From assembly GCA_021783915.1 (NCBI GenBank), contig JAJXTI010000001.1, positions 1,540 through 65,539 on the forward strand: DNA of 64,000 nucleotides, written 5' to 3'. The stretch comes from a bacterium (GTDB lineage: Bacteria; Omnitrophota; Gorgyraeia; Zapsychrales; Fredricksoniimonadaceae). How positions within the stretch are numbered: the stretch's first letter is position 1; each line of letters opens with the position of its first letter. The notes under the pieces are model-generated. The model was not told where the DNA came from. It saw only the letters and a list, made by a program, of their open reading frames with translations, and did no database searches. Positions 28,145 through 48,931 of the stretch are shown one piece after another. The position numbers were made by a program, and so were the translations under genes.

Positions 28145-28660
28145 TCATTTGTCTGCTTTAGGTGCTAAAACCAGCGAAACAATGCGGCCTTCGGCCAAGG
28201 GTTCTTTTTCAATGACCGCATGTTCTGCCGTCTTAGTGATAATTTTTTCCAATACCGCTTTCCACTGATCCTTAAAAGACATTTCGCGGCCTTGGAACAC
28301 CATGTTAATTTTTACCTTGTCTCTCTTGCTCAAAAAAACAATCGTCTGCTTCATCTTAATGTCCAAATCGTGATCGCCAATATGCGGCTTGATACGTATC
28401 TGTTTCAAATGAGTGACATGTTGGTGTTTCTTGACCTTGCGTTCTTTTTTTTCCTGGTCGTATTTATATTTGCTAAAATCTATAATACGGCAAACCGGAG
28501 GAGTCGCCGTCGGAGCCACTTCCACCAGGTCCAATTCATATTCATTAGCCAATTCTAAAGCTCTTTGTATGGAAACCACCCCCAATTGTTCCGAATTGGG
28601 ACCAATCACGCGTATTTCTTTGGAACGAATTTGGTTGTTTATGCGAATGTTTTTTAAAAT
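28145..28660 (-). CDS. infC: translation initiation factor IF-3, with atypical AUU start codon
   Basis: The ORF-track Met MIGPNSEQLGVV is internal. Upstream in frame is ATT-LKNIRINNQIRSKEIRV, preceded by GGAGG (28668-28672) at 7-nt spacing. Confidence 0.85.
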   Translation of the reverse strand: MLKNIRINNQIRSKEIRVIGPNSEQLGVVSIQRALELANEYELDLVEVAPTATPPVCRIIDFSKYKYDQEKKERKVKKHQHVTHLKQIRIKPHIGDHDLDIKMKQTIVFLSKRDKVKINMVFQGREMSFKDQWKAVLEKIITKTAEHAVIEKEPLAEGRIVSLVLAPKADK

Positions 28661-28769
28661 AGTCTTTCCTCCGACTTTAGGTTAATAAATTTTTCATCGC
28701 CACATTTTCATAAAACACAAAAAACGGGCTTATTTAAGGCTCTTTATTATCCTTACTTTTTACTTCTTG

Positions 28770-31700
28770 TCAATCCCTCTGTTTCTGATACAGATTTGGA
28801 AGGATCGAAGGGGAAAACCAGTCGCCGCTGTGCCCGGAAGAACCTAAAAACAATCGCGAGGGATTTGGGATCGGCTGGAATTTGACAACTTGAAAATTAA
28901 ACCCTTGGAATGACTGAAGAGAAAGAGAATCCGGCTTGGGTGCTAAAAGACTTGATGCGCTGAATAATGAATTCTTGTTGTCTTTAAAAACAACTCTGCC
29001 GTTTATTGTTGAAAGATCTATCCCTCCGCTTTGAGCAGATGAAGAGGAGACTTGAGCCGCATTGACCACTTCTTTGATGCGAGCAACCGCATTGGACGAA
29101 CTGCCCCCGTTGGCAATACGCATTAATTGCGACATCCTTGAATTCGGTTCAAAAATATCCGTCTCCACCTTAGGAGAACCATCAATTTCGGAATCAGCTG
29201 CCTGAAGGACTTCATACAACGCCCTTAAACTTTGTTCTTCTACCTGCCTGCCATCTCTTTTCCTTAAATTACCCCATTCAGTGCGTTCATCCAAATAATC
29301 ATTGATTTCTTCCTTAAAATCAACTGGATCAGTGATCTGATGCTGGATAATTAACGGGTTTAGTAAATCCCATTCCAAACTTAAAGGTAAAGTTTCCCAT
29401 AATTCGTTCTTGTCCATATATTCGGCAATATCCGTCAACACTTTCACAGCGTCCCTGGCAATGGCTATTCTTCCGTTTAAAACCGGATACTGCTTAAAGG
29501 TACGGATTTTCGGCAGAAATCTTTCTACTAAAATGGCCCATACTCCTTTTTTATACGATTTTTTGTCTCTTTCCAGATCAGCAATGTCCAGATTTCTATA
29601 AATGTGGTAGGCCTCCGAGTAAGTCTTTGAGGAGGCCATTTCTCCTGCGGTATCAACAAAGCTGAATTCTTTTAGATCCTCCCCATTAACTTTTGCTCCG
29701 GCCATTCTAATGCCTTTGACCGGAAAATACGGCATCAGGCCAAAATAGGCATCCTGTGTATAGACGAGGATATGCCCGTCCACTGGATGGGCCTTGGATG
29801 TTGGGTCTTTTCTTGCAAACCGGTACCCATCCTTGATCGCTAGGTCAAGCAAGAAATATTCCAGGCCCTTCTGACTGGAAGCATATTTTCCATGAAAAAC
29901 AAACATAACGTTTAAATCATCCCAGGATTTTGCATGCGGCATCTTTTCATATTTCTTTTTAGCTTTCAATAACGCATACAGATATGCATTGCCGCTCCCC
30001 TTGTGCTCCGACGGCACGAAAATGACAGGAACGTCGTTTCTGATTAAAGTCCCCCGCCTGCTGCTCTCATACTCATCAAGATTGGAAGAATCATCAGGAT
30101 TTTCTGATACTATGACGATCAGGCCTACGGTGGGCTTGCCAGATGCCAACTCAATCCTGGCTTGCTCGTCGCCTTCACGATTGGACATCGCAACAATATC
30201 TTTTTCCCCCTGCTCACTTACCGTTATCTTTCTTTTCCCAGGTGGGTTAAGGGTTTTTTCTAATTCAATATCTTGTTTTCCGAGGGATGCCTCGGTGTCT
30301 TTTTTCCAAGCTATTTCTAATTTTGTAAAGACATGTCCCCAAGATGTAAAATAGGTAATGGTAAAAAACAACGCCGTGCCAACCAATGAAAATCTTGCCC
30401 CTAAGAATTTGTACCCTAAAATAATCGCCCCTATTGAGACAGCCAGCCAGGCGGCTCCAAGCACATATTTCATTTTTCCAAAGAAAGTACCCAGCCTCGA
30501 TTGATGGCGCACATCCTGTGTCAAAGGATTGGTCAAACTCCCTCCCCTTTTGCCGGCACTCTCCAATAATTCTTTGCTTTTAAACAGGATCCTGGCTTTA
30601 TCCGGATATAATCCCATGAGTTCATTGCCTTGGTCTAATGTTGAGGAAATGTCTTTCATAATTTTTCTGCTTGAGACATTCCAAAGCCTGGTCTCACCTA
30701 AAATAAATCGAGAAATTTTGGCCCAAGGCCATTCCGTAGGATGCCTGTTTGAAAATTTATACCGTATAACCTCATCAATGTTCCCGCGATGGGACAAAAC
30801 ACTGCGGTAAGTGACGACGTAGTCGATATACCTCTTAAAAATTTCATTCTGAGCCAGTAACTGTTCCCGTTGGGTATCATCTAAATCCTGGCCCTTTAGA
30901 CGATCCTTGATGATTTCACGCGTATCAAGGGCCAGAACTAAAACATAGTCAAATGTCCTCGAATAATTCTCCTGTTTTAAAGCCTCTTGGCCTCCTTCTG
31001 CCCCTTCCCTGCTGTTCATCAACTCAGGTGTATAGGGCATTTTCATCAGGGCTTCTTCAAAACGGTTAAGCACTGTATTGAACTCAGGGATCAAGACCTC
31101 CGCCTTTACTTGGCTTTCTTTGTCCCAATCAGCAACTAAATCATACCAAATTCTTAAAGCCGGCATGGTAAACTCATACTCATTTTTAGGTGGGGGGACA
31201 TCAAGCATGCTCTCAATGACCCTCGCATGATTTCTACCGTTAGTATGGGGGCGGCCATAAAATCTTCTATATATTCTTCGATTTAGGCTGGCGGAACCCG
31301 CGAAATGTCTGAAGATCCTTCCATACATTCTTTTTAAAAAACTGACCGTAAGGGCCGCTCCACATAAAAATATAACACTTAACTCGCTCTTGGATATCAT
31401 GGGGATGTGTTGATCATTGGTCCTTATCTTCCCGGCAATGTCATCCCGTATTGACTTTAGATCCTCAAGCATAGATTTAACCTGAGGGTCTTTGGCGGTA
31501 TTTAAGCACTCCAAAAAATATGCGTCAACCTTTCTGGGATCTGTTTCCAGCGTAATCCTATGCTCAATTTTCACCCACTCATCCTTGACCCTGGTCTCCA
31601 TCTTGCGGTAACCTGACCACGGGGTCCAAATACTCTGCTTCTTATCATAAACCAGCCATGCCCTGCTTAACGCTACCACATTAATCCGCGCCTCTTTGAT

Positions 31701-34700
31701 AGATCCCTCAGGTAATAAATGTAATTCTCCGGCGGAATAGGCTTGTAGGCCCACTAATGAATATTCCTCTTGCCCCGTTCTGGTGGCCATTTTATTTAAA
31801 GCATCCCTATAGATCCTTTTAACAGCAGCATTTGTCATCTTAGGCATGTCTGTCATCGCAATCTGTTTCCATGGACGCTGTTCAATTAAACCAAGGAGGT
31901 TGGCCTCTGAGCTCTCCAAGTATGTCCGCAAAACCAACGCTCGTCCTAGATCTGAGCCCATTAAACGATCCAGTGCAACATTACGCAGAGGAGTTGAAGA
32001 TGTCGGAAGCTCAAAAATTTGGTTCACTTCTGAAATATCTGCTTTATTTATGTAAGCTTCTTGATCCCCTCTCACTGATTCCCCTGGCCTTCCATTTAAT
32101 CCCAGAATCTTTAAATAATCTTCTTCGTAAGATGTCCTCGGAGCGGAAAGATCATACAATGGATCTCCCCCTTCAATCCCTGAGGCATTATTGAGGGTCT
32201 TTTGCGTTTCCTGGAGAGAGCTGTCGTACAGCATGGGAAGAACATTTTGTATGTTTCGCCAATCAGGAGAAGTTTTAAGATAATTTTCAGCATCTTGCTC
32301 ATTAGCGGCGATTTGAACACTAGTAATGACATCTGTTGTAAAAAATGCGTCGATGATTCCAAGATTATCAAAACCTCCCAAGATATAAACGTCATCAATA
32401 TCTGCCAAGGCCACCTTCCTTAAAATTGTATCATGGATCAAATCACGCAATCTCTTGGCCCTGCTGACATCCTGTCGGGTCTCCTGATTGTCAATATAAG
32501 CCCCCATCTGATGGTATATTTTGGCTAAATCATCAGTGTCCCAAAAATCGCTTTGTAAAATATTTTCTGTAGCAATCGAATATTTCGGTTGCTGGGACAG
32601 GAGGGTCAAAAAAACCTTGTTGGCTATTTCAGGAGATACTTGCGGGGATAACGCCGTAGGTGTTAAATTTGTCAAAACTTCCGGATGCAGGGTGATCATG
32701 TGGTCCAGGGCTTGAAACCCAAGGCCGGCAAGAAGAGGATTATTATTTTTCTCAGCTCCATCAATGGTTTGCATAAAAAACCCGACATCCCGATCCCTGC
32801 GTCCGCTCATGTATTTTAAAAGTTTCCAGATGACCTCAGGATATGGCGAATGATTAAGAACGTCTTTTAAGGCCGGAAGGAATTCTCCCTTGCTCTGGTA
32901 TTCAGTCAAAAAATGATCCAAGTCCTCCGCGCGCATATAAATATTAGGTTCACTGATTAAAATTTTTTTCATCTCTGCCAGCGGGCGCGGGTGCATCAAG
33001 GCCCAAGTGCTGGGGACATCGCTGTATACATGATAATTCACAGATCCCGGAACCAAAACTTGGCCCTGCAGTGGATTCGGGCCATTAATTGAAATACCCT
33101 CCGGAGGCCCAGGCAAAGCCAGCAACGGTGACGCCGTAAACCAATTAGTTGAAAGATGTCCTCCGATCGCTGAGGACACGGCCAAGGCAAAACGATTATC
33201 CAGATCAGTGGAATTGTCCTCTCCTAATACGCGCATTTCCCTTAAACGCGCTTCCTCTTTCAGATATTGGGCTTTAAGATCAATGAGGAGTGCGGCTTGT
33301 TTGCTTATTTGAATACGTTCCTGGCTGATTTGATAAGGCAAATATAAACCGGATTCCTCTTTCATTTTCCAGACAGAAAAAGCATCTTGATAAGCCTTTT
33401 CAGATTCCTTGATCTGCCGGCTTAAAAAATTAATGTTATTCACCGCCTCTTTGAGTTCTTCAGACAGCCTTACTTTGGTTGCCTTTATATTTAAATCAAT
33501 TCTTTTCTTTTCCAAGGCCATGATCTTTGTTTCTGCTTTAAGTCTGGAATTAAATATAGGAATATTGAACTGCGCGCCTAAATTATTGTTGCGAGTTACT
33601 TCGGAAGTCCGTTGGAGATATTCATTGTCGGAAATATTATGGATCGCGCTGGTAGCGGAACCCCCGTTGATTTCAATGTCCTGCGCGTAAAGAGTGGGCA
33701 GTTTTTCCAGTCCCTGCAATTGCGCTGCCAAATCCGTTGACTGGCCCGTGATCAGCGCCTCCTGCATCCTTGGATTGGGACTGTCCTTGCCGGTCAACTC
33801 CTTCTCCATCAGGTTTTGAGCGGCCACATCAATGGAAGAAAATTCTTTTCCCCAGGGCAGAGAAGCAGCTATAGGCCTGTCAAAATTAATATGGCCGTTT
33901 GCGTCCGGACCCATAAAACTATTTAAGGCCACCGTCCAATTCTGAAGATCATCCTCGAGAGCCAAGCGCTGGGCATGAATATTTTGGATCGCAAGATCAT
34001 ATTCGCTGTTTTCCACAGGCAGACTGAAGACCCCTGCCTGGCGTTTGAGCATCGCTTCCTTGGCCTTTTGCGATTCAGATTCCAACGCTTTCAATTGTTC
34101 GATTTTTTGTTCAGCGCTGCCGATGTCGATCAACAGATCCTGGGCCTCCTTGACCTGCTGAAAGACCACTGTCTGCATATGATGGACAGCCAGGTCAGTC
34201 GCTTTTTGGGCCATCCTTGTTTCTTTGGCAACTTTACCAGTCAAAAGGTCCGTGATGTTGCCCAAAATCTGGGAGACAATCGGTGAGGAAGCTCCAAGGG
34301 CGTTGCCCGATTGAAGTCCTCCTCCTATCATATTATTAAACATCCCTCGGGCCCCTCCATCAAAAGTTAATTTCCCATCCTTAAAATAAACACCCCCGTT
34401 TAAACTAAACCGAGTGGCTTTAGGCAAGGCCTCAGCCAATTTTTTCTGGATAATTTCAATGTTTTGAGGGCCAATCGCCAATTCATTGGAGGCAACGGCC
34501 TGCCGCACGCCTGATAAATTCACAGCAAAAGATGGGGCCCCGGGCATAGTTAGCGACGTATTTGACCGTGCAGTCCCTGTAAATGCATAGGGTGAAATTA
34601 AAGAAAACAGGTCTTGCTGCTCAAAAGGAGGAGGCTGGTTTCCGCCAACCCCTGCAGGCATCGGTGTCATGCTGCTGGCGGTAAAAGCGCCGAAAGCGTC

Positions 34701-37700
34701 CAGAATGCTTTTTTTTTCATTCTCCATCGGCACAATGACCTTGACCGGTAAATCAGGATAAAGGATGTTTTGTTGGTCCACCGCCATGACCTCAAGGGAC
34801 TGGTATTTACTCAAGTCTATAGAAGAGGCAAAGGGGGTTTGATTGACGGCAACCACCCTTCCGGGCAAGAATATCCCTTGTACTGTTTCAATGGCTATAG
34901 GATCTCCATCATGGAATGGCATGCCTTGGGGAAATAAAACAGGACCTTTGACATCATTGATACCTCCTATCAGAACCTTGCCTGTGCCTATGGTCAAAAG
35001 CCTGTCTTCTGCTTGAAATACTTTTGAACCATAGGTCAATCCATGGACAAAGCCACTATGTGGAGCGCGGATGTTCATGCGTTCAATTTGTTCATAAAGA
35101 AGTTTACCCCGAGCCAGAAGCTCGGCCTTTTGCGTTTTCAAATTGTCCAATTCAGCGCGAGGTATCATACGCGAGGCTTCTGCCGTCCCTATCTCCATGT
35201 TCTTGGCGGCCAAGGCCAAGGAGATGCTTTGATATTCATCATCTAAATGCTTATGGTCAACAACAGCCACTATCTGCCCTTCCCTGACATTCTCTCCTTC
35301 ATAGACTAAAAACCGTACCTGTCCTTGCATAGGGGCCCTGACCACATACTCCTCAACTTGCCTGACCTGGGCGATCGTCGAAATTTTTCCCGTAATAGGG
35401 ACAAGGGTTTGACCCTGCGTTTGGGGAAAAAGAAAATCAGCATCCAAGCTAAAGGCCCCTTGCGCGTCAGCGGTAGGTGCCGATGGGAAAACCCCGACAA
35501 ATTTTAATTGGGCCTTTTGTTGCAGTGGGTCCAGGGACCAATCAATATTCATAATACTCTTGGCCGGCACCCCATTAATCTTAAAATTTTTGATCCTGTT
35601 AAAATAATTTACGTCAAGTGGCAGTTTGAAGCTGACTTGCAGCCGTTGATTGTCATAATACCTTGCTAGCCGATCGTTCTTCGCTACTTGTTGGCCAAGG
35701 GCCACCAGCCAGTCACCATCAACCGTCATATCATCAGCCGCAATGACAACAGCTGCCTCCTTTTCCTGGCTGGCCTTGTCTAATTGCTGGTTGATCTCCT
35801 CTTTTTCTTGTTGGACCTTGACGAGTTCTTGAAGGGTCGCCGCCTGTTGTGCATACAATCCTTTCAGTTCTGTCAGTCTTTTCGTGATGATTTCTTTTTG
35901 GGAGGTCAATTTTTCAATACGCTTTTCCAGTTCTAAATTCATGATAGAACATATTTCTTCCCCGGCCAAATAATGCTTTTTATCAGGATTCAGGCCTGTG
36001 ATGACCCCATCGCTTCCTGCCAGAATATTATCTTCTAAAGCCGTCACCGATACCTTTCGTAAAAAATGGAATCCGCCGACATCGGCCTGCGACGATGACC
36101 TTGCAAATGCAACAGGATGAGAGGTTGCAACAACAGCAAACGCAGGTAAAGGCGGTCTGACAACAGGAGTAAACTTACCAAAGGTGCTCGGTGATGTAGC
36201 GACCGCTGTAAAAGTGGTTGCTGGCTGAGCCACCGGCGCTGCTGGTTGAACAACTGGTGGCGTTACCTGAACCCCCGGTGCTGCTGGTTGAACAACTGGT
36301 GGCGTTGCCTGAGCCACCGGCGCTGCTGGTTGAACAACTGGTGGCGTTACCTGAACCACCGGTGCTGCTGATTGAACAACTGGTGGCGTTGCCTGAGCCA
36401 CCGGCGCTGCTGGTTGAACAACTGGTGGCGTTACCTGAGCTACCGGCGTAGCCGGAACAAAGCCTTGCCATTCTTGTTCTAACTGCCCTAATCTCTTTTC
36501 TTCAAATCCCAAAGACCCCATTATCATCAGGCGTTGACCACCCTTCATCCAGGGATCCCGCACTAACTGCCTTTTATAGGCCATATCTTCTTTGAGGCCG
36601 GTAATGTCTTTTTCGACTTGTTCCACAGAGGAATGGTGTTCTTGGGCGTGAAAGACATGAGACGGTATGGTATCGGCATTGGCCAGACGCACTCCTCCTG
36701 CCAGAAGCATTCCGGCCCACAAAGACATCAACGTCTTTCTCGATACGCCGATGGGGTTTAACAGCACAGTGATTTGAGCATAATCTTTCCCGAACATCCG
36801 CTGGGCCTCAGGCAATTCACCTATCAGGGCGGCAGGCCTGAATGTGACATGCTCGGACGCATGAGTAAAAGAAAATCCGCCTGAAAAATATTTACGGGGA
36901 ACCACTTGGTGCAAATTTTCATCATAATCCTCGCGGATAAAATTGTACGCCCCTTTTTTGAGGGCCCGGAGATATTGGGCGTATATTTTTTCTTTTATCA
37001 ACTTTTCATGCAACAAAATTCCGGAAGTCTTTTTCTTGTCCGCATACACATCCTTGATCAAATCTTCTTTTAATCTTTTCTTAAACCAAATCGCAAGGAC
37101 AAGTGAATTAAACATCTGACGCAGGGAAGCAAAATATTTTCCTTTATTGACCTCTCGTTCCAATTCGGGAATGATAAGCTCACGCATTAATTGAGTGGAC
37201 AAATAATCAACCTGCGAGTTTTTTTCTGACAGTTTCTTGAACCTGCTGCTGTTTTTCTGCATGCTCAAATAATCCTCTTCAACCATCACTTTCAACCGGC
37301 TTTCAGCTATAAAAGCTGAGCCGTTGCCCTCATACACCACGGCCTTATCAGGCACCACCCAGACTTTATTGAAACTCTTGATCGGTACCTTGGTACTGCC
37401 GTATTCAGCTCGGGCTCTGTCAAAAATCCTTTTCCAAAAAATTCTGCCTAATTCATGGTTGGGATAGGTGAGGGAAGATGCCAGCTGTTTAAGAATATAA
37501 TCCTGAACCAGCATGTCACGACCGGCATTGGTGCCTTCAAAATCGGAAGGGATGATATGTCCCTTTTCATAAGGTGAGAGATTCACCCACAGGTCTTCTT
37601 CCGGAAGGGTCAAAAAACCCAAAAAATATTTAATAAGAAGGTTGACTTGTTCTTGATCGAGTTTCTCGGTTTGATTTCGGCCCGGGACATCAACCACAAA

Positions 37701-37901
37701 ATTGATCTTAAAGGGATCCTTAGGGTCGATGGCGATGGCTTTGAACGTAGGCAGAGAAAAAGCCCGTGAGGGGGTCATCAACGTGCCTGCCGGTAGCATG
37801 ATATCATTGGGCTGTGCGGAAAAGGCTCTGGCAGCGTCCGTCCCTATAATGTGAACGCCAAAAACAACGATAAAGATCAAACGAAAGACATTTTTTCGCA
37901 T
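28770..37901 (-). CDS. giant (3043 aa) secreted/membrane multidomain protein with proline-rich tandem repeats, HlyD-like adaptor barrel, TolC-like coiled-coil region, internal TM helices and a large C-terminal region of unknown function
   Basis: Single uninterrupted 9132-nt ORF. N-terminal signal peptide. PPVVQPAAPVAQA repeats. Lipoyl/HlyD-like FLVYEGENVREGQIVAVVD...IRAPHSGFV. Long coiled coils resembling OMF repeats. Hydrophobic helices around aa 2250 and 2440. Confidence 0.85.
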   Translation of the reverse strand: MRKNVFRLIFIVVFGVHIIGTDAARAFSAQPNDIMLPAGTLMTPSRAFSLPTFKAIAIDPKDPFKINFVVDVPGRNQTEKLDQEQVNLLIKYFLGFLTLPEEDLWVNLSPYEKGHIIPSDFEGTNAGRDMLVQDYILKQLASSLTYPNHELGRIFWKRIFDRARAEYGSTKVPIKSFNKVWVVPDKAVVYEGNGSAFIAESRLKVMVEEDYLSMQKNSSRFKKLSEKNSQVDYLSTQLMRELIIPELEREVNKGKYFASLRQMFNSLVLAIWFKKRLKEDLIKDVYADKKKTSGILLHEKLIKEKIYAQYLRALKKGAYNFIREDYDENLHQVVPRKYFSGGFSFTHASEHVTFRPAALIGELPEAQRMFGKDYAQITVLLNPIGVSRKTLMSLWAGMLLAGGVRLANADTIPSHVFHAQEHHSSVEQVEKDITGLKEDMAYKRQLVRDPWMKGGQRLMIMGSLGFEEKRLGQLEQEWQGFVPATPVAQVTPPVVQPAAPVAQATPPVVQSAAPVVQVTPPVVQPAAPVAQATPPVVQPAAPGVQVTPPVVQPAAPVAQPATTFTAVATSPSTFGKFTPVVRPPLPAFAVVATSHPVAFARSSSQADVGGFHFLRKVSVTALEDNILAGSDGVITGLNPDKKHYLAGEEICSIMNLELEKRIEKLTSQKEIITKRLTELKGLYAQQAATLQELVKVQQEKEEINQQLDKASQEKEAAVVIAADDMTVDGDWLVALGQQVAKNDRLARYYDNQRLQVSFKLPLDVNYFNRIKNFKINGVPAKSIMNIDWSLDPLQQKAQLKFVGVFPSAPTADAQGAFSLDADFLFPQTQGQTLVPITGKISTIAQVRQVEEYVVRAPMQGQVRFLVYEGENVREGQIVAVVDHKHLDDEYQSISLALAAKNMEIGTAEASRMIPRAELDNLKTQKAELLARGKLLYEQIERMNIRAPHSGFVHGLTYGSKVFQAEDRLLTIGTGKVLIGGINDVKGPVLFPQGMPFHDGDPIAIETVQGIFLPGRVVAVNQTPFASSIDLSKYQSLEVMAVDQQNILYPDLPVKVIVPMENEKKSILDAFGAFTASSMTPMPAGVGGNQPPPFEQQDLFSLISPYAFTGTARSNTSLTMPGAPSFAVNLSGVRQAVASNELAIGPQNIEIIQKKLAEALPKATRFSLNGGVYFKDGKLTFDGGARGMFNNMIGGGLQSGNALGASSPIVSQILGNITDLLTGKVAKETRMAQKATDLAVHHMQTVVFQQVKEAQDLLIDIGSAEQKIEQLKALESESQKAKEAMLKRQAGVFSLPVENSEYDLAIQNIHAQRLALEDDLQNWTVALNSFMGPDANGHINFDRPIAASLPWGKEFSSIDVAAQNLMEKELTGKDSPNPRMQEALITGQSTDLAAQLQGLEKLPTLYAQDIEINGGSATSAIHNISDNEYLQRTSEVTRNNNLGAQFNIPIFNSRLKAETKIMALEKKRIDLNIKATKVRLSEELKEAVNNINFLSRQIKESEKAYQDAFSVWKMKEESGLYLPYQISQERIQISKQAALLIDLKAQYLKEEARLREMRVLGEDNSTDLDNRFALAVSSAIGGHLSTNWFTASPLLALPGPPEGISINGPNPLQGQVLVPGSVNYHVYSDVPSTWALMHPRPLAEMKKILISEPNIYMRAEDLDHFLTEYQSKGEFLPALKDVLNHSPYPEVIWKLLKYMSGRRDRDVGFFMQTIDGAEKNNNPLLAGLGFQALDHMITLHPEVLTNLTPTALSPQVSPEIANKVFLTLLSQQPKYSIATENILQSDFWDTDDLAKIYHQMGAYIDNQETRQDVSRAKRLRDLIHDTILRKVALADIDDVYILGGFDNLGIIDAFFTTDVITSVQIAANEQDAENYLKTSPDWRNIQNVLPMLYDSSLQETQKTLNNASGIEGGDPLYDLSAPRTSYEEDYLKILGLNGRPGESVRGDQEAYINKADISEVNQIFELPTSSTPLRNVALDRLMGSDLGRALVLRTYLESSEANLLGLIEQRPWKQIAMTDMPKMTNAAVKRIYRDALNKMATRTGQEEYSLVGLQAYSAGELHLLPEGSIKEARINVVALSRAWLVYDKKQSIWTPWSGYRKMETRVKDEWVKIEHRITLETDPRKVDAYFLECLNTAKDPQVKSMLEDLKSIRDDIAGKIRTNDQHIPMISKSELSVIFLCGAALTVSFLKRMYGRIFRHFAGSASLNRRIYRRFYGRPHTNGRNHARVIESMLDVPPPKNEYEFTMPALRIWYDLVADWDKESQVKAEVLIPEFNTVLNRFEEALMKMPYTPELMNSREGAEGGQEALKQENYSRTFDYVLVLALDTREIIKDRLKGQDLDDTQREQLLAQNEIFKRYIDYVVTYRSVLSHRGNIDEVIRYKFSNRHPTEWPWAKISRFILGETRLWNVSSRKIMKDISSTLDQGNELMGLYPDKARILFKSKELLESAGKRGGSLTNPLTQDVRHQSRLGTFFGKMKYVLGAAWLAVSIGAIILGYKFLGARFSLVGTALFFTITYFTSWGHVFTKLEIAWKKDTEASLGKQDIELEKTLNPPGKRKITVSEQGEKDIVAMSNREGDEQARIELASGKPTVGLIVIVSENPDDSSNLDEYESSRRGTLIRNDVPVIFVPSEHKGSGNAYLYALLKAKKKYEKMPHAKSWDDLNVMFVFHGKYASSQKGLEYFLLDLAIKDGYRFARKDPTSKAHPVDGHILVYTQDAYFGLMPYFPVKGIRMAGAKVNGEDLKEFSFVDTAGEMASSKTYSEAYHIYRNLDIADLERDKKSYKKGVWAILVERFLPKIRTFKQYPVLNGRIAIARDAVKVLTDIAEYMDKNELWETLPLSLEWDLLNPLIIQHQITDPVDFKEEINDYLDERTEWGNLRKRDGRQVEEQSLRALYEVLQAADSEIDGSPKVETDIFEPNSRMSQLMRIANGGSSSNAVARIKEVVNAAQVSSSSAQSGGIDLSTINGRVVFKDNKNSLFSASSLLAPKPDSLSLQSFQGFNFQVVKFQPIPNPSRLFLGSSGHSGDWFSPSILPNLYQKQRD
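36175..36471. repeat. ~42-nt in-frame tandem repeats (7 units) encoding TPPVVQxAAPVxQA inside the giant gene
   Basis: Repeating ccaccggcgctgctggttgaacaactggtggcgttacctga units with few substitutions. Confidence 0.9.
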
Positions 37902-38129
37902 GATCCATTTATAATCTATCCATATTAATTTAATATGAAGGTTAAATAAAATTTTGAATCCGGCACGTAAACGGCTGATTGAAAAGATGTTATGATGCAG
38001 AAATCATGTCCTGACATACCCGAATGTGAAGCGAAGGCATGCCGCAGATCATGGAAATGAAATTTTTTATACCCGATTTACGCAGGGTTATCTAGAATGT
38101 TTTTCTAAATATACTCCAGTTTCTGGGCG

Positions 38130-39863
38130 CTACAAACGGTCACTGATCTGTTGCTGAAGCCTCTCTAACAGGGCCTGCGGGCCCATTGGACCCAGGTCTC
38201 CGGCCCCATGCGAACGCACGCTCAGCGTTTGAGAAGAGAATTCTTTGTCTCCTATGATAATTTGATAAGGAACCTTCTTCATCGAGGACTCACGGATACG
38301 CTTAGATAAAGATTCATTGCGGTCATCCACGGCCACTCGAAGTCCTTCATCGGAGAATGTCTTTTTTATAGTCTGGGCATATTCGTTATGTTCCGGCTTA
38401 ATGGGAAGAATGACTACCTGATTAGGGGCCAGCCATAGTGGAAAATGTCCCGCATAGTGTTCAATCAGCGTGCCAATAAAACGTTCCAGGCTCCCCAAAA
38501 TCGCGCGGTGCAACATAATAGGCCTGACCTGTGCCCCTTTATCGTCAATATAATGGATATCAAACCTCTCAGGCAAATTAAAATCGCACTGGATGGTCCC
38601 GCATTGCCAAAGGCGGCCGATGGCGTCTTTAAGTTTAAAATCTATCTTGGGGCCGTAGAAGGCTCCCCCTCCTTCATCTACTCTGTAAGAAATTCCCTTG
38701 GCCTTTAAAGCGCCCTTAAGGGCCTCGGTGGCCTTGTCCCAATTCTCTTGGGCCCCCATAAAATCTTTGGGCTGGGTGGAAAGCTCGATATGTAAATCGT
38801 GGAAACCGAAATCATTCATGACTTCAAAAACAAAATCAATGACGCGGACGACCTCCTCTTTGATCTGGTCCGCCCTGCAAAAAATATGGGCATCATCTTG
38901 AGTAAACCCGCGCACGCGTAAAAGTCCGTGCAACACCCCGACCTTTTCCTGGCGGTATACGGTACCCAGTTCGAAATAACGGATAGGCAAGTCACGGTAA
39001 GAACGTATTTGTGACTGATAAATCAAAATATGTCCGGGGCAATTCATAGGCTTGACCGCATAATCCTCGTCATCAACCTTAAAATAATACATGTTTTCTT
39101 TATAATGGCCGGAGTGGCCGGAAATGTCCCACAGCTTGCCCTTTAAAATATTAGGGGTCATGACCATTTTGTAGTCATGCTTTAGATGCTGCGCCCGCAG
39201 ATAATCTTCAATGGTCTTGCGCAGCATCGCACCGTTAGGATGGTAAAACACCAGTCCGGCACCTGCGGTGTCATGATAAATGTGGAACAAGTCCAGTTGG
39301 GTGGCAATTTTTCGGTGGTCGCGCTTGGCCGCTTCTTCGAGCAGATTCAAATAGTCTTCGAGTTCTTTCTGGGTAAAAAAAGCGGTGCCGTAAATACGCT
39401 GGAGCATCTGATTTTTTTCATCCCCCCGCCAGTAAGCGCCGGCGACGGAAAGCAATTTAAACCCTCTGATTTCCCCCGCATTATCAACATGCGGACCTTT
39501 GCACAGATCAATCCATTCATTGCCTGTCTTATAAATGGAAATCTCCTCGTTCTCAGGCAGGTTTTCTATAAGCTCGACTTTATAGGTCTCCCCTTTAGAA
39601 CGGAAATACTCGATGGCCTGAGCGCGTGTCCAGACTTCCTTGGCAAGGACGGGCTTTTTATTGATGATTTTATGCATCTGTTTTTCGATTGTCCTTAAAT
39701 CATTGTCGGAAAAAGGCTCTTTCTTATCAAAATCATAATAGAACCCGTTGTCGATGGCGGGGCCAATGGTGACTTTGGCTTGCGGCCAAAGTTCCTGGAC
39801 CGCCTGGGCCATCACATGCGCACAGGTATGACGAAGTTTATCAATATCTCTGGAATAATCCAT
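38130..39863 (-). CDS. thrS: threonyl-tRNA synthetase (no N-terminal TGS domain)
   Basis: Class II aaRS motifs. Begins in the editing-domain zinc motif (HTCAHVMAQAV). 577 aa. Confidence 0.9.
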   Translation of the reverse strand: MDYSRDIDKLRHTCAHVMAQAVQELWPQAKVTIGPAIDNGFYYDFDKKEPFSDNDLRTIEKQMHKIINKKPVLAKEVWTRAQAIEYFRSKGETYKVELIENLPENEEISIYKTGNEWIDLCKGPHVDNAGEIRGFKLLSVAGAYWRGDEKNQMLQRIYGTAFFTQKELEDYLNLLEEAAKRDHRKIATQLDLFHIYHDTAGAGLVFYHPNGAMLRKTIEDYLRAQHLKHDYKMVMTPNILKGKLWDISGHSGHYKENMYYFKVDDEDYAVKPMNCPGHILIYQSQIRSYRDLPIRYFELGTVYRQEKVGVLHGLLRVRGFTQDDAHIFCRADQIKEEVVRVIDFVFEVMNDFGFHDLHIELSTQPKDFMGAQENWDKATEALKGALKAKGISYRVDEGGGAFYGPKIDFKLKDAIGRLWQCGTIQCDFNLPERFDIHYIDDKGAQVRPIMLHRAILGSLERFIGTLIEHYAGHFPLWLAPNQVVILPIKPEHNEYAQTIKKTFSDEGLRVAVDDRNESLSKRIRESSMKKVPYQIIIGDKEFSSQTLSVRSHGAGDLGPMGPQALLERLQQQISDRL

Positions 39864-45205: not shown

Positions 45206-46804
45206 CTATCGACTTTTAGCCATTTTCCACTGGGTCCAAGTAGATAAAGCATAAAAAACTGTAAAATAAAGAGATTGTCCACTTGCAAAATGATAAAAGA
45301 TAAATCCGATGAAAAACGGGAAAAAATATCTCATCATCTTCTGCTGCATAGCTTGAGACTCATCGGTAACAACCATGTTTTTAGCTGAAATTTTTTGCTG
45401 TAAAAACATTACGGCCCCCATAGCTATAGGTAATATATTAATCTCATTCCCTATAAAAGGCAAGTATTTAGGCAAAAGAATTAATCTGTCTGGTTGGGTC
45501 AAATCTTTAATCCATAGGAATCCTTTGCCTTGAAAATAATAGGCACGCCAAAGAATCTGGTAAAGAGCCATAAAAATTGGCATTTGCAATAGAAAAGGTA
45601 AGCATCCCCCTAAAGGATTAACTCCCTCCCTTTTGTATAATTCAACCATTTCAGCATTAAGTTTTTGTGGATTATCTTTATATTTCTGTTGCAACGCTGC
45701 CACTTTAGGTTGTACAGATTGCATTTTTTTCATCGATCCCATGCTCTTAACAGTGAGAGGATATGTAATACCATAAATTAAAAGGCTTACTAATATTATA
45801 GAAAGCCCCCAGTTACGGCAAATACTATGTATGGCTGGTATGGTATAATAAACGGCTTTGGCAAAGATATCAATAATCCACCAGCCGCTAAAAGCTACGA
45901 TTTTTTCAAATCCTTCTTTATAGGTTTTAAGCCAGATTATATTTTGATCTCCAGCTACTACGGTAAAATTGTAATTAACTGTTTGCCCAGGTTCAATGGT
46001 TTGCGTTTTTGGTTGAACATTAACATTCAGTTGACTATTACTAACCACATCATTTTCATAGCCTTTTGTTTCAAATTTAGGCTTTATAATGACAGCATGA
46101 TAATGATCTCGAAAACCTATCCAATCAAATTCACTATTATTAGGAGCATTATTTATTTTATTATCTTTAGAATTAAATTTATAAGCTCCACCTTTACGAA
46201 ACACATGATTTTTTTCCAGAATGGAAAGTTCATACAACATTGCATTTCTAGTATTTTTAGTATCAACAGTACTTCCGTTTATACTTAAACCTCTAATATA
46301 TATATTTTCCAGTCTGGAAGTTTTGCTTAAATTTTTAATATTAACATCAACATTTAGGGTGTTTTTGTCTTTAATTTTAAAATATTTTGTTATTTCCCAT
46401 TCTTTTGTTGTATAAACGTAGGTTGCACTATCTTTATTTTGATCAACTAAAACGAAGGGCACTTTCTCAAATCCTTTAATTAGAAACATGTTTTCTATAG
46501 GAAGCGGTTCCTCTGAACCCGATATGTCTAATTTGTGGAGAGATCCACCCACATTTGATAATTCTATATCCATATTAGTGGTTTGTAATTTTATTTCTTT
46601 TTCTTTAAAACTTTGATTTGTGGTTTTTGTTTGCTCAATAGGTGTGACTGTGGTCGGATTTGTTGATTTTTCTATATCTTCATTTTTTTGAATGAGTTGC
46701 GCTTGTTTTATCATTTGTGCTCTCTTAGGAAGCACAAAAATACTCTGATAAAGAGATAAAACTAGCATTGATACCGCAAGAGCTAAAATAAGATTTCTAT
46801 CCAT
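45206..46804 (-). CDS. yidC: membrane protein insertase YidC
   Basis: Large periplasmic domain then the conserved 5-TM core (GCLPFLLQMPIFMALY). Confidence 0.85.
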   Translation of the reverse strand: MDRNLILALAVSMLVLSLYQSIFVLPKRAQMIKQAQLIQKNEDIEKSTNPTTVTPIEQTKTTNQSFKEKEIKLQTTNMDIELSNVGGSLHKLDISGSEEPLPIENMFLIKGFEKVPFVLVDQNKDSATYVYTTKEWEITKYFKIKDKNTLNVDVNIKNLSKTSRLENIYIRGLSINGSTVDTKNTRNAMLYELSILEKNHVFRKGGAYKFNSKDNKINNAPNNSEFDWIGFRDHYHAVIIKPKFETKGYENDVVSNSQLNVNVQPKTQTIEPGQTVNYNFTVVAGDQNIIWLKTYKEGFEKIVAFSGWWIIDIFAKAVYYTIPAIHSICRNWGLSIILVSLLIYGITYPLTVKSMGSMKKMQSVQPKVAALQQKYKDNPQKLNAEMVELYKREGVNPLGGCLPFLLQMPIFMALYQILWRAYYFQGKGFLWIKDLTQPDRLILLPKYLPFIGNEINILPIAMGAVMFLQQKISAKNMVVTDESQAMQQKMMRYFFPFFIGFIFYHFASGQSLYFTVFYALSTWTQWKMAKSR

Positions 46805-46806
46805 AA

Positions 46807-47016
46807 TTATTTTACCGGATCGTATCCGCCTTTAGATAGGGGAGAGCAGCGTAAGATGCGCCAGGCGCCCATAAACAGGCCTTTAAAAGCCCCATGTCTG
46901 CGTATGGCCTCGACTGTGTACTGCGAGCACGTCGGATAAAACCGACAAGCATTAATGCCAAAAGGCCGACTTAACCTTTGATAAGCTTTTACGGCAAACA
47001 ATAACAGTCTGTCCAT
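46807..47016 (-). CDS. yidD: membrane protein insertion efficiency factor YidD
   Basis: AVKAYQRLSRPFGINACRFYPTCSQY. Confidence 0.8.
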   Translation of the reverse strand: MDRLLLFAVKAYQRLSRPFGINACRFYPTCSQYTVEAIRRHGAFKGLFMGAWRILRCSPLSKGGYDPVK

Positions 47017-47057
47017 GGGAAAGCAACCTTAGACGAGAGCCTCGTCCTTGACCTTAT

Positions 47058-47195
47058 TTATGGAATTAGCTGGTGACGGCCTTTGGCTCGACGGCGGGCT
47101 AAGACCTTGCGTCCGTCTTTGGTGGCCATGCGCTTTCTAAATCCGTGCTTCCTGACCCCGACAATGTTCGTTGGTGTTTTCAAATGCTTTTTCAT
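47058..47195 (-). CDS. rpmH: ribosomal protein L34
   Basis: Hand-translated [45 protein letters not shown]. Not in the ORF track because it is under 60 aa. Confidence 0.8.
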
Positions 47196-47380
47196 AATGG
47201 GGCAAATTATAACACAGGCAATTGTCGCGTCAAGCTTTTTACAATAAAGACAAAACCCCTTAGACGAAGAGGGGTTAAGTTTTTACTCAAATTCCGTCGT
47301 GAAAAAAACCGTTGCAATGGAAGAACGCTTTGTTATAATGACCAGCTACTAAAGCCTGCCTGACGGCAGGCAAGCTGGTT

Positions 47381-47401
47381 TTATCCACAGCTGTGAATAA
47401 C
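47381..47401. promoter_or_regulatory. inverted pair of DnaA boxes upstream of dnaA (TTATCCACA-gct-TGTGAATAA)
   Basis: Perfect consensus TTATCCACA and its near-complement separated by 3 nt. Confidence 0.75.
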
Positions 47402-47423
47402 TTGTGTACGAATCTCGTCGAAA

Positions 47424-48761: not shown

Positions 48762-48763
48762 CT

Positions 48764-48925: not shown

Positions 48926-48931
48926 GTGATT

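What the first reader, a model, noticed from the sequence alone, without database searches (positions are those of the whole stretch)
28770..37901. A 9.1-kb giant gene (3043 aa) sits between thrS and infC
thrS-infC-rpmI-rplT-pheS-pheT is among the most conserved operon arrangements in bacteria. Here thrS and infC are separated by one uninterrupted 9132-nt ORF. It starts with a signal peptide, then has an N-terminal ~470-aa region with no recognisable family. Then come seven 42-nt proline-rich tandem repeats, then a coiled-coil and lipoyl-barrel segment like HlyD/periplasmic adaptor proteins. After that are long alpha-helical repeats like TolC outer-membrane factor, then two strongly hydrophobic helices, then a ~600-aa C-terminal region of unknown function. 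A single polypeptide carrying both adaptor-like and OMF-like modules plus TM anchors does not match any described efflux or secretion architecture. It could be a cell-surface, adhesion or cell-cell contact machine of the giant-gene kind reported from some uncultivated episymbiotic lineages.
Basis: partly seen in the sequence, partly recalled or inferred. Interest (0 to 1): 0.85.

Follow-up and report, generated by a model that had tools for sequence, protein, structure and literature searches.

The report
Single-chain adaptor–TolC envelope protein in Omnitrophota
A real, conserved 3043-residue Omnitrophota protein joins two efflux-pump adaptor modules, a TolC-like outer-membrane channel unit, membrane anchors and a sugar-nucleotide-enzyme-like domain in one chain, belongs to a very large family I could not find described, and was recently inserted as a single gene into the last codons of thrS.

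Summary
A 9132-nt ORF (28770-37901, minus strand) lies between thrS and infC. A second, near-identical assembly has the same arrangement.

About 45 collinear Omnitrophota orthologues (22-41% identity) show it is a real gene.

Its parts, in order:
- a signal-peptide-like start;
- a ~320-aa "N-module" with no Pfam, NCBIfam or PDB match, found at the N-terminus of proteins in over 8000 clusters;
- a second signal-like hydrophobic segment;
- a proline-rich repeat spacer;
- two tandem periplasmic-adaptor (HlyD/MFP) modules;
- one TolC-like unit;
- a ~530-aa unannotated region;
- three hydrophobic segments, read as membrane spans;
- a ~280-aa predicted cytoplasmic segment;
- a domain with the fold of GDP-fucose pyrophosphorylase;
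- a ~70-aa family "C-motif".

A homotrimer would hold 3 channel units and 6 adaptors, the ratio in known tripartite pumps. I therefore read it as a self-contained envelope-spanning duct. Its cargo and energy source are unknown.

In about 76 other Omnitrophota species infC directly follows thrS. Here a 9.36-kb cassette (leader plus ORF) sits inside the last codons of thrS. The ORF's stop codon lies in the -35 box of the infC promoter.

The adhesin reading is not supported.

The parts
28770..37901 (-). Whole ORF, 3043 aa
   Evidence: Collinear with about 45 orthologues.
37824..37901 (-). aa 1-26: signal-peptide-like N-terminus (MRKNVFR, a 13-aa hydrophobic core, then ARA|F)
   Evidence: Read from the sequence. 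Whether it is cleaved or acts as an export signal was not tested.
36867..37823 (-). aa 27-345: N-module (invariant WVNLSPYE and RKYFSGG motifs), the most conserved part of the protein
36678..36749 (-). aa 385-408: second signal-like segment (SRK-TLMSLWAGMLLAGGV-RLANA). Either an internal in-to-out signal-anchor or a fossil signal peptide.
   Evidence: Present in all 31 aligned orthologues. Its presence across the family correlates with downstream TM segments (odds ratio 10.3, p 3e-8).
36042..36677 (-). aa 409-620: variable spacer containing the 42-nt (14-aa, PVAQxTPPVVQPAA) tandem repeats at 36183-36497
   Evidence: Low conservation and occupancy. Copy number differs between the two assemblies.
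35397..36041 (-). aa 621-835: periplasmic-adaptor (MFP/HlyD) module 1: lipoyl half, coiled-coil hairpin, lipoyl half, then a likely beta-barrel
   Evidence: PDB profile hits EmrA (E 6.9e-7) and ZneB. hhalign against module 2: 96.7% probability, E 4.5e-10.
34497..35396 (-). aa 836-1135: periplasmic-adaptor module 2 (lipoyl, hairpin, beta-barrel)
   Evidence: NCBIfam RND_mfp E 7.4e-9. MacA, MexA and MexC-like chains, E 5.6e-11 to 7e-5. HlyD_D23 in 9/15 and HlyD_3 in 6/15 orthologues.
32982..34454 (-). aa 1150-1640: TolC-like outer-membrane-factor unit, with two candidate beta-hairpins and long helices
   Evidence: Pfam OEP on the query: E 4.5e-4, 2 stretches, below the gathering cut-off. OEP in 13/15 orthologues, best 4.1e-11. 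OprJ-like chain E 0.036 and 1yc9 E 0.3 with the family profile. The hairpin motifs were read by eye.
31392..32981 (-). aa 1641-2170: conserved region of unknown fold between the TolC-like unit and the first TM. I infer it is a periplasmic stalk.
   Evidence: Conserved and collinear. No Pfam or PDB hit. Retained in the short variant P0039, which lacks the adaptor and TolC parts.
31326..31391 (-). aa 2171-2192: TM1, followed by a strongly basic stretch (KRMYGRIFRHF...RR)
30474..31325 (-). aa 2193-2476: predicted cytoplasmic segment, function unknown
   Evidence: Conserved. No hits.
30330..30473 (-). aa 2477-2524: TM2-TM3, two hydrophobic helices joined by a short turn (hairpin)
   Evidence: The Pro-Gly turn in orthologues was read.
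29049..30191 (-). aa 2571-2951: sugar-1-phosphate nucleotidylyltransferase-like domain (GSGNAY loop; conserved R2621, G2635, G2721, Q2804, D2845, Y2869, R2873)
28833..29048 (-). aa 2952-3023: family C-motif (GGIDL ... FQGFNFQVVKFQP)
   Evidence: HMM built from paralogues matches the giant at E 2e-16. Present in 113 of 121 family proteins. AF2 pLDDT < 40.
28775..38138 (-). Inserted cassette (9364 nt): a 237-nt leader plus the ORF without its last 5 nt (its final codon and stop lie mostly in the duplicated ATTGAC)
   Evidence: Comparison with thrS-infC loci of relatives.
38139..38144 (-). Left copy of the possible target duplication (AGTGAC) at the end of thrS. The new thrS C-terminus is ...QQISDRL*.
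28769..28774 (-). Right copy of the possible target duplication (ATTGAC). It contains the ORF's TGA stop.
28746..28773 (-). infC promoter-like site TTGACA-16-GATAAT (11 of 12). In relatives it overlaps the thrS stop; here it overlaps the giant ORF's stop.
38130..39863 (-). thrS (upstream neighbour; its last codons are altered by the insertion)
28145..28660 (-). infC (downstream neighbour; ATT start at 28660)

Best explanation
The ORF encodes a genuine, phylum-conserved Omnitrophota envelope protein. It places in one polypeptide the parts that normally form the periplasmic and outer-membrane sections of a tripartite efflux or type-1-secretion duct.

Shown:
- the order of parts: signal-like N-terminus, N-module, second signal-like segment, proline-rich spacer, two tandem adaptor modules, one TolC-like unit, a ~530-aa conserved region, TM1, a ~280-aa segment, a TM2-TM3 hairpin, a GDP-fucose-pyrophosphorylase-like nucleotidyltransferase fold, and the C-motif;
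- conservation of this layout in about 45 orthologues;
- membership of a very large family whose proteins begin with the N-module; 113 of 121 examined also end with the C-motif.

Inferred:
- The protein trimerises through its TolC-like unit. Three chains then supply 3 OMF units and 6 adaptor modules, the 3:6 ratio of AcrA/MacA-TolC type assemblies.
- The result is a self-contained duct from the inner to the outer membrane, anchored by 9 or more TM helices.
- Three nucleotidyltransferase-like domains sit on the cytoplasmic face. They either sense or make a sugar nucleotide linked to what the duct handles, most plausibly a glycan or sugar-derived substrate.

No transporter or energising domain is present in the chain, and no conserved neighbour gene supplies one.

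Preferred topology: the N-module and C-motif are cytoplasmic. The segment at aa 385-408 takes the chain out to the periplasm, and TM1 brings it back.

Genomic position. The gene reached the thrS-infC gap by a recent insertion of one gene with its own leader into the last codons of thrS. The position says nothing about function.
For: Reality and conservation.

Two adaptor modules.

TolC-like unit.

TM layout conserved in 31 orthologues, with a basic stretch after TM1.

Nucleotidyltransferase fold.

Family bookends.

Topology argument:
- Most paralogues carry cytoplasm-type cargo with no TM after the N-module.
- A signal-like segment follows the N-module mainly in proteins that also have downstream TM segments, 40/10 against 19/49, p 3e-8.
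- In P0088 a LysM domain lies beyond the single strong internal hydrophobic segment (KD >= 1.7). In P0081 a peptidoglycan-binding fragment lies between two hydrophobic segments.

Insertion:
- infC directly follows thrS in about 76 other Omnitrophota species.
- The ancestral thrS end and infC promoter now sit at the 3' end of the giant ORF.
- Six orthologues lie in six unrelated contexts, one between kdpC and kdpD.
- G+C content matches the neighbouring genes.
Against: - Oligomeric state, duct formation and substrate were not tested.
- On the query itself the OEP match is below Pfam's cut-off, and the two TolC halves are not detectably alike by hhalign.
- Some family variants have a shortened TolC part or none (P0021/22/24/36, P0030, P0039), so a complete channel is not universal.
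- The N-terminus looks like a textbook cleavable Sec signal: basic n-region, short h-region, AxA. That favours a periplasmic N-module and conflicts with the preferred topology.
- In P0088 the C-motif would be periplasmic under the same logic.
- The nucleotidyltransferase assignment rests on fold only. No Pfam or PDB sequence match reached significance and catalytic residues were not verified.
- The 4-6-bp target duplication is short and imperfect.
Confidence: 0.55

Rival explanations
1. Structural envelope staple. The adaptor and TolC-like modules have been co-opted to rivet the outer membrane to the inner membrane and to a cytoplasmic scaffold in these very small cells. Nothing is transported.
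For: - The chain has only three or four membrane crossings and no ABC, RND or MFS domain.
- No partner gene is conserved next to it.
- Variants lacking the adaptor and TolC parts keep the rest of the scaffold (P0039).
Against: - Both adaptor modules keep the lipoyl and coiled-coil-hairpin layout that contacts the OMF tip.
- OEP similarity is kept in 13 of 15 orthologues.
- The conserved nucleotidyltransferase-like domain has no obvious role in a pure staple.
Confidence: 0.15
2. Dedicated exit duct or dock for the other N-module/C-motif proteins. The family's conserved ends would be recognition signals, and this member would be the conduit that shares them.
For: - It carries both family bookends.
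- The C-motif lies near the C-terminus (within the last ~100 residues in the eight sequences printed), like the C-terminal signals of type 1 and type 9 secretion substrates (that comparison is my own knowledge).
- The protein search returned roughly one orthologue per twenty or so family members, which fits one copy per genome.
Against: - Cargo domains of the paralogues are cytoplasm-type: glycolytic enzymes, receiver domains, HTH, SNF2 helicases.
- There is no ATPase or transporter in the chain or next to it.
- In the giant itself the C-motif is predicted to be cytoplasmic.
Confidence: 0.12
3. Surface adhesin or cell-cell contact protein of the giant-gene kind.
For: - The host phylum is reported to be episymbiotic or predatory and rich in giant surface proteins (preprints 10.1101/2023.11.21.568195 and 10.64898/2026.06.07.730766).
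- The proline-rich spacer varies in copy number between the two assemblies.
Against: - Pfam finds no adhesin-type repeat or any other domain.
- By domain identity most of the chain is periplasmic, membrane-embedded or cytoplasmic. A TolC-type barrel exposes only short loops.
- At 9.1 kb it is far shorter than the published classes, and Pfam finds no dockerin, SecA-DEAD or C39 domains.
Confidence: 0.05
4. Artefact: an assembly chimera, a fused or frameshifted pseudogene, or a chance ORF.
For: - The locus comes from a metagenome assembly.
- The tandem-repeat copy number differs between the two assemblies.
Against: - Full-length collinear orthologues exist in many independent assemblies.
- The second assembly has identical junctions.
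- The junction sequences make evolutionary sense: the ancestral thrS end is retained.
Confidence: 0.02

Closest known systems
Tripartite efflux pumps and type 1 secretion ducts (AcrAB-TolC, MacAB-TolC, MexAB-OprM, HlyBD-TolC)
   Same: The adaptor modules have a lipoyl domain, a coiled-coil hairpin and a likely beta-barrel. There is a TolC/OEP-like unit. Two adaptors per OMF unit reproduce the 6:3 ratio of the assembled pumps (the ratio is from my own knowledge and review PMC8277102).
   Different: - All parts are in one 3043-aa chain, in the order adaptor-adaptor-OMF.
- There is no inner-membrane transporter or ATPase in the chain or in a conserved neighbour gene.
- Extra parts are present: the N-module, a ~530-aa unannotated region, three TM segments, a nucleotidyltransferase-like domain and the C-motif.
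- The review and my searches mention no natural adaptor-OMF fusion.
GDP-fucose pyrophosphorylase domain of FKP (L-fucokinase/L-fucose-1-P guanylyltransferase; PDB 9iis, 9iit) and other sugar-1-P nucleotidylyltransferases
   Different: - Only 10-11% sequence identity, and no significant Pfam or PDB sequence hit.
- It is tethered to the membrane at the end of an envelope-spanning chain.
- Activity and catalytic residues are untested.
Omnitrophota giant proteins: Archaeovorins, dockerin-type proteins and 'multi-enzyme metabolic clusters' (preprints 10.1101/2023.11.21.568195 and 10.64898/2026.06.07.730766)
   Same: - Same phylum.
- Paralogues with the same N-module carry the same kinds of sugar-metabolism and signalling domains (PGM/PMM, ROK, radical SAM, receivers, HATPase) listed for the multi-enzyme class.
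- They raise the same signal-peptide versus cytoplasmic-cargo puzzle.
   Different: - 3 kaa rather than the 10-147 kaa of the 2026 catalogue.
- Pfam finds no dockerin, SecA-DEAD or C39 domains.
- Term searches of the two preprints found no mention of TolC or HlyD, and none of their N-/C-terminal passages describes the N-module or C-motif.
Conserved N-proximal secretion or retention domains of very large exoproteins (the TPS domain of two-partner secretion; the N-terminal retention module of LapA-type adhesins). Analogy from my own knowledge only.
   Same: A conserved module follows the N-terminus on otherwise highly variable, very long proteins.
   Different: - No sequence or fold similarity was found.
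- Cargo domains here are cytoplasm-type.
- Which side of the membrane the module sits on is unresolved.

Membership tests
Periplasmic adaptor proteins (MFP/HlyD family) | Lipoyl (barrel-sandwich) domain split by an alpha-helical hairpin | tested here: met
   NCBIfam RND_mfp E 7.4e-9. MacA, MexA and EmrA matched with the family profile. The internal duplication aligns A-P-x-x-G-x-V, coiled coil, I-x-A-P-x-x-G-x-V in both modules.
Periplasmic adaptor proteins (MFP/HlyD family) | Beta-barrel domain after the lipoyl domain | tested here: met
   MexC-like chain residues 60-313 align to profile positions 876-1109. HlyD_D23 in 9/15 and HlyD_3 in 6/15 orthologues. Shown clearly for module 2 only.
Periplasmic adaptor proteins (MFP/HlyD family) | Separate protein encoded next to its inner-membrane transporter | tested here: not met
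   The modules are embedded in a 3043-aa chain. Seven loci show no conserved transporter neighbour.
Outer membrane factor (TolC/OEP, PF02321) | Two OEP repeats scoring above Pfam's gathering threshold | tested here: inconclusive
   Query: 20.5 bits against a cut-off of 22, two stretches. 13 of 15 orthologues match at E <= 0.01, best 4.1e-11. The two halves are not alike by hhalign.
Outer membrane factor (TolC/OEP, PF02321) | Homotrimer forming a 12-stranded barrel and a helical tunnel | not testable with these tools
Outer membrane factor (TolC/OEP, PF02321) | Stand-alone protein of about 450-500 aa with its own signal peptide | tested here: not met
   The unit is internal, at aa ~1150-1640.
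Sugar-1-phosphate nucleotidylyltransferases (FKP GDP-fucose pyrophosphorylase type) | Nucleotidyltransferase alpha/beta fold | tested here: met
Sugar-1-phosphate nucleotidylyltransferases (FKP GDP-fucose pyrophosphorylase type) | Sequence signature and catalytic residues; a family HMM match | tested here: inconclusive
   No Pfam or PDB sequence match for the query. One orthologue hits CofC at E 0.004. Conserved R2621, the GSGN loop and D2845 are compatible with activity but were not mapped onto a solved active site.
Published Omnitrophota giant genes (Archaeovorin, dockerin-type) | Far greater length, with dockerin, SecA-DEAD or C39 peptidase domains and many TM segments | tested here: not met
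   9.1 kb. None of these domains is found by Pfam. Class definitions taken.
Type 1 secretion substrates and RTX adhesins | RTX or adhesin repeats and no N-terminal signal peptide | tested here: not met
   No such Pfam hits. The N-terminus is signal-like.
N-module/C-motif family of Omnitrophota (no description found) | N-module directly after a hydrophobic N-terminus | tested here: met
N-module/C-motif family of Omnitrophota (no description found) | C-motif of about 70 aa near the C-terminus | tested here: met
   E 2e-16 against an HMM built from paralogues. Present in 113 of 121 family proteins.
Transposable element (IS or transposon) | Transposase gene, terminal inverted repeats and a target-site duplication | tested here: not met
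   Pfam and NCBIfam find no transposase domain in the ORF, which with its 237-nt leader makes up the whole insert. None of the 25 longest inverted-repeat pairs listed pairs the two ends. Only a short imperfect duplication, AGTGAC/ATTGAC, is present.

The most novel reading that the evidence does not exclude
The N-module and C-motif define a phylum-wide system I could not find described. In it, thousands of very long multi-enzyme polypeptides are pinned by their ends to the cytoplasmic face of the membrane, despite their signal-peptide-like starts. This adaptor-TolC member would be the one paralogue that continues across the envelope. It would physically couple that membrane-bound sugar and central-carbon enzyme layer to an outer-membrane duct, for example to exchange sugars or glycans with a host or prey cell. 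Because its adaptor and TolC parts must be periplasmic, the protein would also serve as a built-in topology reporter for the whole family, including the published giant proteins.
Probability: 0.15. Interest if true: 0.9.

Novelty: new variant of a known kind. Interest (0 to 1): 0.72.

Why it matters
1. A natural single chain carrying two adaptors and one TolC-like unit would encode the 6:3 ratio of tripartite pumps in one gene. It would be a compact model for how adaptors dock on OMF channels, and it raises the question of how such a duct works without a recognisable transporter.

2. The gene exposes a family of over 8000 protein clusters. They share an N-terminal module of about 320 aa with no detectable known fold, and 113 of 121 examined also share a C-terminal motif. 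Neither is in Pfam or NCBIfam. These bookends flank much of the odd multi-enzyme protein repertoire of Omnitrophota.

3. Two preprints struggle with whether those proteins are exported or cytoplasmic. This protein's obligately periplasmic and cytoplasmic modules turn that into a testable question.

4. The locus is a base-pair-resolved example of a 9.4-kb single-gene cassette landing inside a housekeeping operon without breaking it. thrS gains a new three-residue tail, and the infC promoter is kept and supplies the new gene's stop codon.

Tried and rejected
- Whole-protein phmmer against PDB gave no hit. Only the family profile found adaptor and OMF chains.
- A protein search with the C-terminal domain alone returned a single 411-aa fragment and taught nothing.
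- Profile and Pfam searches of the C-terminal region gave nothing significant, only gp120 noise and one CofC hit.
- hhalign found no similarity between the two TolC halves, or among the aa 1650-2165 and 2195-2475 regions.
- The afdb50 library was unavailable.
- I hoped a short natural protein with N-module plus C-motif would let me test whether the two ends dock. The short family members I read were contig-truncated fragments without the C-motif.
- No terminal inverted repeats or long direct repeats were found at the insert ends.
- I tested whether a shared promoter or leader marks the whole N-module family. It does not: only the giant orthologues share CTTAAC-N(14-24)-TATACTTG, found 3 times in 87 loci and always 40-90 nt upstream of the start. 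The window's own leader has only a weak version.
- My first reading of the left junction (thrS ending in ...TATATTTAG) was wrong. It was corrected by codon-level comparison with ten relatives.
- An exact contig look-up for the window's own protein failed.
- Synteny gave no clue to function: six orthologues lie in six unrelated neighbourhoods.
Full report
**1. The observation**

The window holds one uninterrupted ORF on the minus strand, 28770..37901 (ATG start, 3043 aa).

Same-strand neighbours:
- thrS at 38130..39863;
- infC, then rplT, pheS and pheT;
- an H+-pyrophosphatase.

infC most likely starts at an ATT codon at 28660, preceded by GGAGG.

The 42-nt repeat is real. TRF finds 5.3 copies at 36225-36448. 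With two degenerate flanking copies the array spans about 7.5 units, 36183-36497. G+C content in the ORF (0.42-0.47) is like that of its neighbours.

**2. Is it a real gene?**

A protein search returned 1053 hits.
- About 45 are proteins of mostly 2700-3600 aa (a few are shorter or partial) that align with the query from end to end at 22-41% identity.
- Occupancy is high everywhere except the spacer at aa 400-600.
- Every hit that carries a source name is from Omnitrophota/Omnitrophica.

One hit (P0001, 99% identical) lies on NCBI MAG contig DAIEEH010000005.1.
- That contig has the same order: thrS, giant, infC, rpmI, rplT, pheS, pheT, H+-PPase.
- Its DNA is 99.96-100% identical to the window over 25 kb, apart from two missing repeat units.
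- The window's exact protein is on a different NCBI contig of 70.8 kb.

A chance ORF, a chimera or a frameshift fusion can be set aside.

**3. Anatomy**

- **aa 1-26.** Basic n-region, a 13-residue hydrophobic core, then ARA|F. This looks like a Sec signal peptide.
- **aa 27-345, the N-module.** This is the best-conserved stretch, at 45-60% identity to other proteins, with invariant WVNLSPYE and RKYFSGG motifs.
- **aa 385-408.** A second n-h-c segment (SRK-TLMSLWAGMLLAGGV-RLANA) is present in all 31 aligned orthologues.
- **aa 409-620.** A variable, proline-rich spacer that holds the tandem repeats.
- **aa 621-835 and 836-1135, two adaptor modules.**
  - NCBIfam RND_mfp scores E 7.4e-9.
  - The family profile finds MacA and a putative efflux transporter at about 5.5e-11, plus EmrA, MexA, MexC-like and ZneB chains at weaker E-values.
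  - The two modules align to each other at 96.7% hhalign probability, E 4.5e-10. The shared pattern is lipoyl half, coiled-coil hairpin, lipoyl half.
  - HlyD_D23, HlyD_3 and Biotin_lipoyl recur in the orthologues.
- **aa ~1150-1640, the TolC-like unit.**
  - Pfam OEP on the query scores E 4.5e-4 in two stretches, just below the gathering score.
  - 13 of 15 orthologues match OEP, best E 4.1e-11.
  - The profile touches an OprJ-like chain and 1yc9 weakly.
  - Two LP...beta-hairpin...IP.F motifs typical of OMF repeats are visible by eye.
- **aa 1641-2170.** Conserved, with no match to anything.
- **aa 2171-2192, TM1.** Followed by a very basic stretch.
- **aa 2193-2476.** A conserved segment with no match.
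- **aa 2477-2524.** Two hydrophobic helices joined by a short turn.
- All three hydrophobic segments are conserved across the orthologues.
- **aa 2571-2951.** AlphaFold2 with a 22-sequence alignment gives pLDDT about 90.
  - There is no significant sequence-level match.
- **aa 2952-3023, the C-motif.** See section 4.

**4. The family behind it**

Hits P0048-P0120 share only the first ~340 residues with the query, at 40-53% identity. They are 1700-5000-aa proteins. Their precomputed Pfam domains include:
- central-carbon and sugar enzymes: triose-phosphate isomerase, PGK, enolase, PGM/PMM, PGI, UDP-glucose pyrophosphorylase, PPDK, isocitrate lyase and malate synthase;
- signalling and other domains: receiver domains, HATPase, SNF2 helicases, M48 peptidases, UbiB kinases and methyltransferases.

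A profile of the N-module found 8276 clusters among 1.84 billion representatives (6732 at E <= 1e-30). In all 150 listed matches the module starts within the first ~75 residues.

The module has:
- no Pfam or NCBIfam match;
- no PDB sequence match;
- no detectable fold match, using a model with pLDDT 71.8 and pTM 0.74.

At the other end, a ~70-residue motif (GGI[DN]L...LQIKRDGNGIPLP...GF.PVIINITPI.NLP.LLG) occurs in 113 of 121 family proteins. The giant matches it at E 2e-16.

Term searches of the two Omnitrophota giant-protein preprints found no mention of TolC or HlyD, and none of the N-/C-terminal passages returned describes these bookends. One search for Omnitrophota, TolC and fusion found no paper. 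A second search for fused adaptor-OMF proteins returned 18 papers, among them the 2021 review of tripartite systems, which mentions no natural adaptor-OMF fusion in the part held here.

**5. Which side of the membrane?**

This is unresolved, and it matters.

Model A takes the N-terminus at face value. The signal peptide is cleaved, the N-module is periplasmic, aa 385-408 is a fossil of the ancestral adaptor's signal peptide, and three TM segments put the nucleotidyltransferase-like domain and C-motif in the cytoplasm.

Model B puts the N-module in the cytoplasm. Evidence for it:
- 45 of 73 paralogues have no internal TM, yet carry domains that only make sense in the cytoplasm.
- A signal-like segment with a basic N-side follows the N-module in the giant orthologues and in TM-bearing paralogues such as P0049, P0068, P0070 and P0081. 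Its presence tracks downstream TM segments: 40/10 against 19/49, odds ratio 10.3, Fisher p 3e-8.
- In P0088 a LysM domain lies beyond the single strong internal hydrophobic segment (KD >= 1.7; a weaker one lies just before it). In P0081 a peptidoglycan-binding fragment lies between two hydrophobic segments.
- In the giant, model B gives four crossings. The N-module, the nucleotidyltransferase-like domain and the C-motif are then cytoplasmic, and the adaptors and TolC unit periplasmic. The charges flanking aa 385-408 and TM1 obey the positive-inside rule.

Against model B:
- The N-terminus has textbook signal-peptide features.
- P0088's C-motif would end up outside.

I lean towards B, at roughly 55-60%.

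**6. How it probably works**

Shown: the domain composition, order and conservation.

Inferred: TolC-family proteins work as trimers and bind six adaptors (my own knowledge and PMC8277102). A chain with two adaptor modules and one OMF unit gives exactly that ratio as a homotrimer. The simplest reading is a self-contained duct spanning the envelope. It would be held in the inner membrane by its own helices, with three nucleotidyltransferase-like domains at its cytoplasmic base.

Points that limit this reading:
- There is no ABC, RND or MFS domain in the chain.
- No neighbour gene is conserved across seven loci. Energy source and cargo are therefore unknown.
- A sugar- or glycan-related substrate is my best guess. 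It rests on the FKP-like domain and the sugar-nucleotide enzymes common among paralogues.
- Variants exist. P0039 lacks the adaptor and TolC parts, P0030 lacks the TolC part, and P0021/22/24/36 have a shortened one. This suggests the adaptor-TolC cassette was added to an older scaffold of N-module, stalk, TM segments, nucleotidyltransferase-like domain and C-motif.

**7. Why it sits between thrS and infC**

Six orthologues lie in six unrelated contexts:
- P0033 sits between kdpC and kdpD.
- P0007 sits between two genes that are adjacent in the P0037 locus.

A ThrS-based scan returned 80 Omnitrophota species representatives at 57-85% ThrS identity. In all of the roughly 76 with downstream sequence, infC follows thrS within 50-240 nt. 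None has an N-module gene in between.

Codon-level comparison fixes the junctions:
- In relatives thrS ends ...CAA CAG AT(C/T) (A/G)TT GAC AAG AAA TAA. A TTGACA-16-GATAAT promoter for infC overlaps that stop codon.
- In the window thrS ends ...CAA CAG ATC AGT GAC | CGT TTG TAG.
- The ancestral tail, ATTGAC AAGAAGTAA AAAGTAAGGATAATA, now follows ...CAG AGG G at the 3' end of the giant ORF.
- The giant's TGA stop lies inside the TTGACA box. That site is the best promoter-like match in the region, 11 of 12.

The insert is therefore 9364 nt (28775-38138): a 237-nt leader plus the ORF. It is flanked by AGTGAC and ATTGAC, a possible 4-6-bp duplication or a microhomology. Pfam and NCBIfam find no transposase domain in the ORF, and none of the 25 longest inverted-repeat pairs listed pairs the two ends. 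The mechanism of the move is unknown.

Three orthologues share an upstream CTTAAC-N(14-24)-TATACTTG motif found nowhere else in 87 loci. This suggests the gene travels with its own promoter. The window's leader has only a 9-of-12 sigma-70-like site at 38003-38030.

**8. Comparison and verdict**

The closest known systems are the tripartite efflux and type 1 secretion ducts.
- The adaptor features that define the family are met.
- The OMF sequence criterion is met by the family but only marginally by the query.
- The criterion of separate proteins next to a transporter is not met.

The C-terminal domain has the fold of nucleotidyltransferases, but family membership by sequence is not shown. The gene is not one of the published giant-gene classes, and nothing points to an adhesin.

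I rate it a new variant of a known kind, set within a family I could not find described. Its function is only partly inferred.

Noticed in passing
window 45206-55266; GC-skew minimum about 46000-48000: The window spans the chromosomal origin region: yidC (minus strand), then dnaA, dnaN, gyrB and gyrA (plus strand). Cumulative GC skew reaches its minimum at 46-48 kb. The giant gene lies 10-19 kb from that point and is co-oriented with replication.
   Followed up: partly
window about 4400-13325: A low-G+C (0.39-0.43) island holds a tyrosine integrase (6333-7391), an N6/N4 DNA methylase (7625-9241), a ResIII helicase (9241-11766) and a large serine recombinase (11727-13325). It is probably an integrated mobile element carrying a type III-like restriction-modification system.
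   Followed up: no
window 59807-61651 (+): One ORF combines a secretin (T2SS-T3SS_pil_N plus Secretin) with a C-terminal TonB_C domain, an unusual fusion.
   Followed up: no
window 28658-28773; L008, L009, L039 and other thrS loci: infC starts with ATT after a GGAGG. Its TTGACA-16-GATAAT promoter-like site overlaps the thrS stop codon in related Omnitrophota. The same promoter-in-stop arrangement is now re-used by the inserted gene.
   Followed up: yes
L026, L030, L038, L041, L051, L058, L068-L076, L079, L083, L086, L087 (rplT-pheS gap); L079:12910-15857: In about 25 of 76 Omnitrophota species roughly 3.4 kb separates rplT from pheS. In L079, the one gap I read, the proteins look like trkA-trkA-trkH by eye; I did not run a family search. 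This 'conserved' operon is thus interrupted elsewhere in the phylum too.
   Followed up: partly
L010:6523 onward; L019:16246 onward; L050:7788 onward: Other N-module family genes sit inside or right after the same operon. In L010 and L019 they lie directly downstream of pheT, and in L050 directly after rplT.
   Followed up: partly
L003:6290-18946; L001 and L002: The orthologue P0033 lies between kdpC and kdpD. P0007 lies between an Mrp/ParA-like gene and a CbiA/DRTGG gene that are adjacent in the P0037 locus. Orthologues repeatedly sit inside otherwise contiguous gene pairs.
   Followed up: partly
L002:6925-6959, L003:6935-6969, L004:6916-6950: The motif CTTAAC-N(14-24)-TATACTTG(GAGC) occurs only 3 times in 87 loci (roughly 1.4 Mb). 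Each copy lies 40-90 nt upstream of a giant orthologue's start codon. It may be a gene-specific promoter, possibly ECF-like (AAC...CGTC).
   Followed up: partly
window 36183-36497 versus L007: The two near-identical assemblies differ by two 42-nt repeat units (3043 vs 3014 aa). This is either a real length polymorphism of the proline-rich spacer or a short-read collapse.
   Followed up: partly
proteins P0048, P0060, P0064, P0067, P0099, P0101, P0108 (C-termini): In paralogues the core of the C-motif (GF[LV]PVIINITPIxNLPxLLG) is hydrophobic enough (Kyte-Doolittle 1.7-2.0) to score as a TM segment. It might be a tail anchor or a membrane-interacting element.
   Followed up: no
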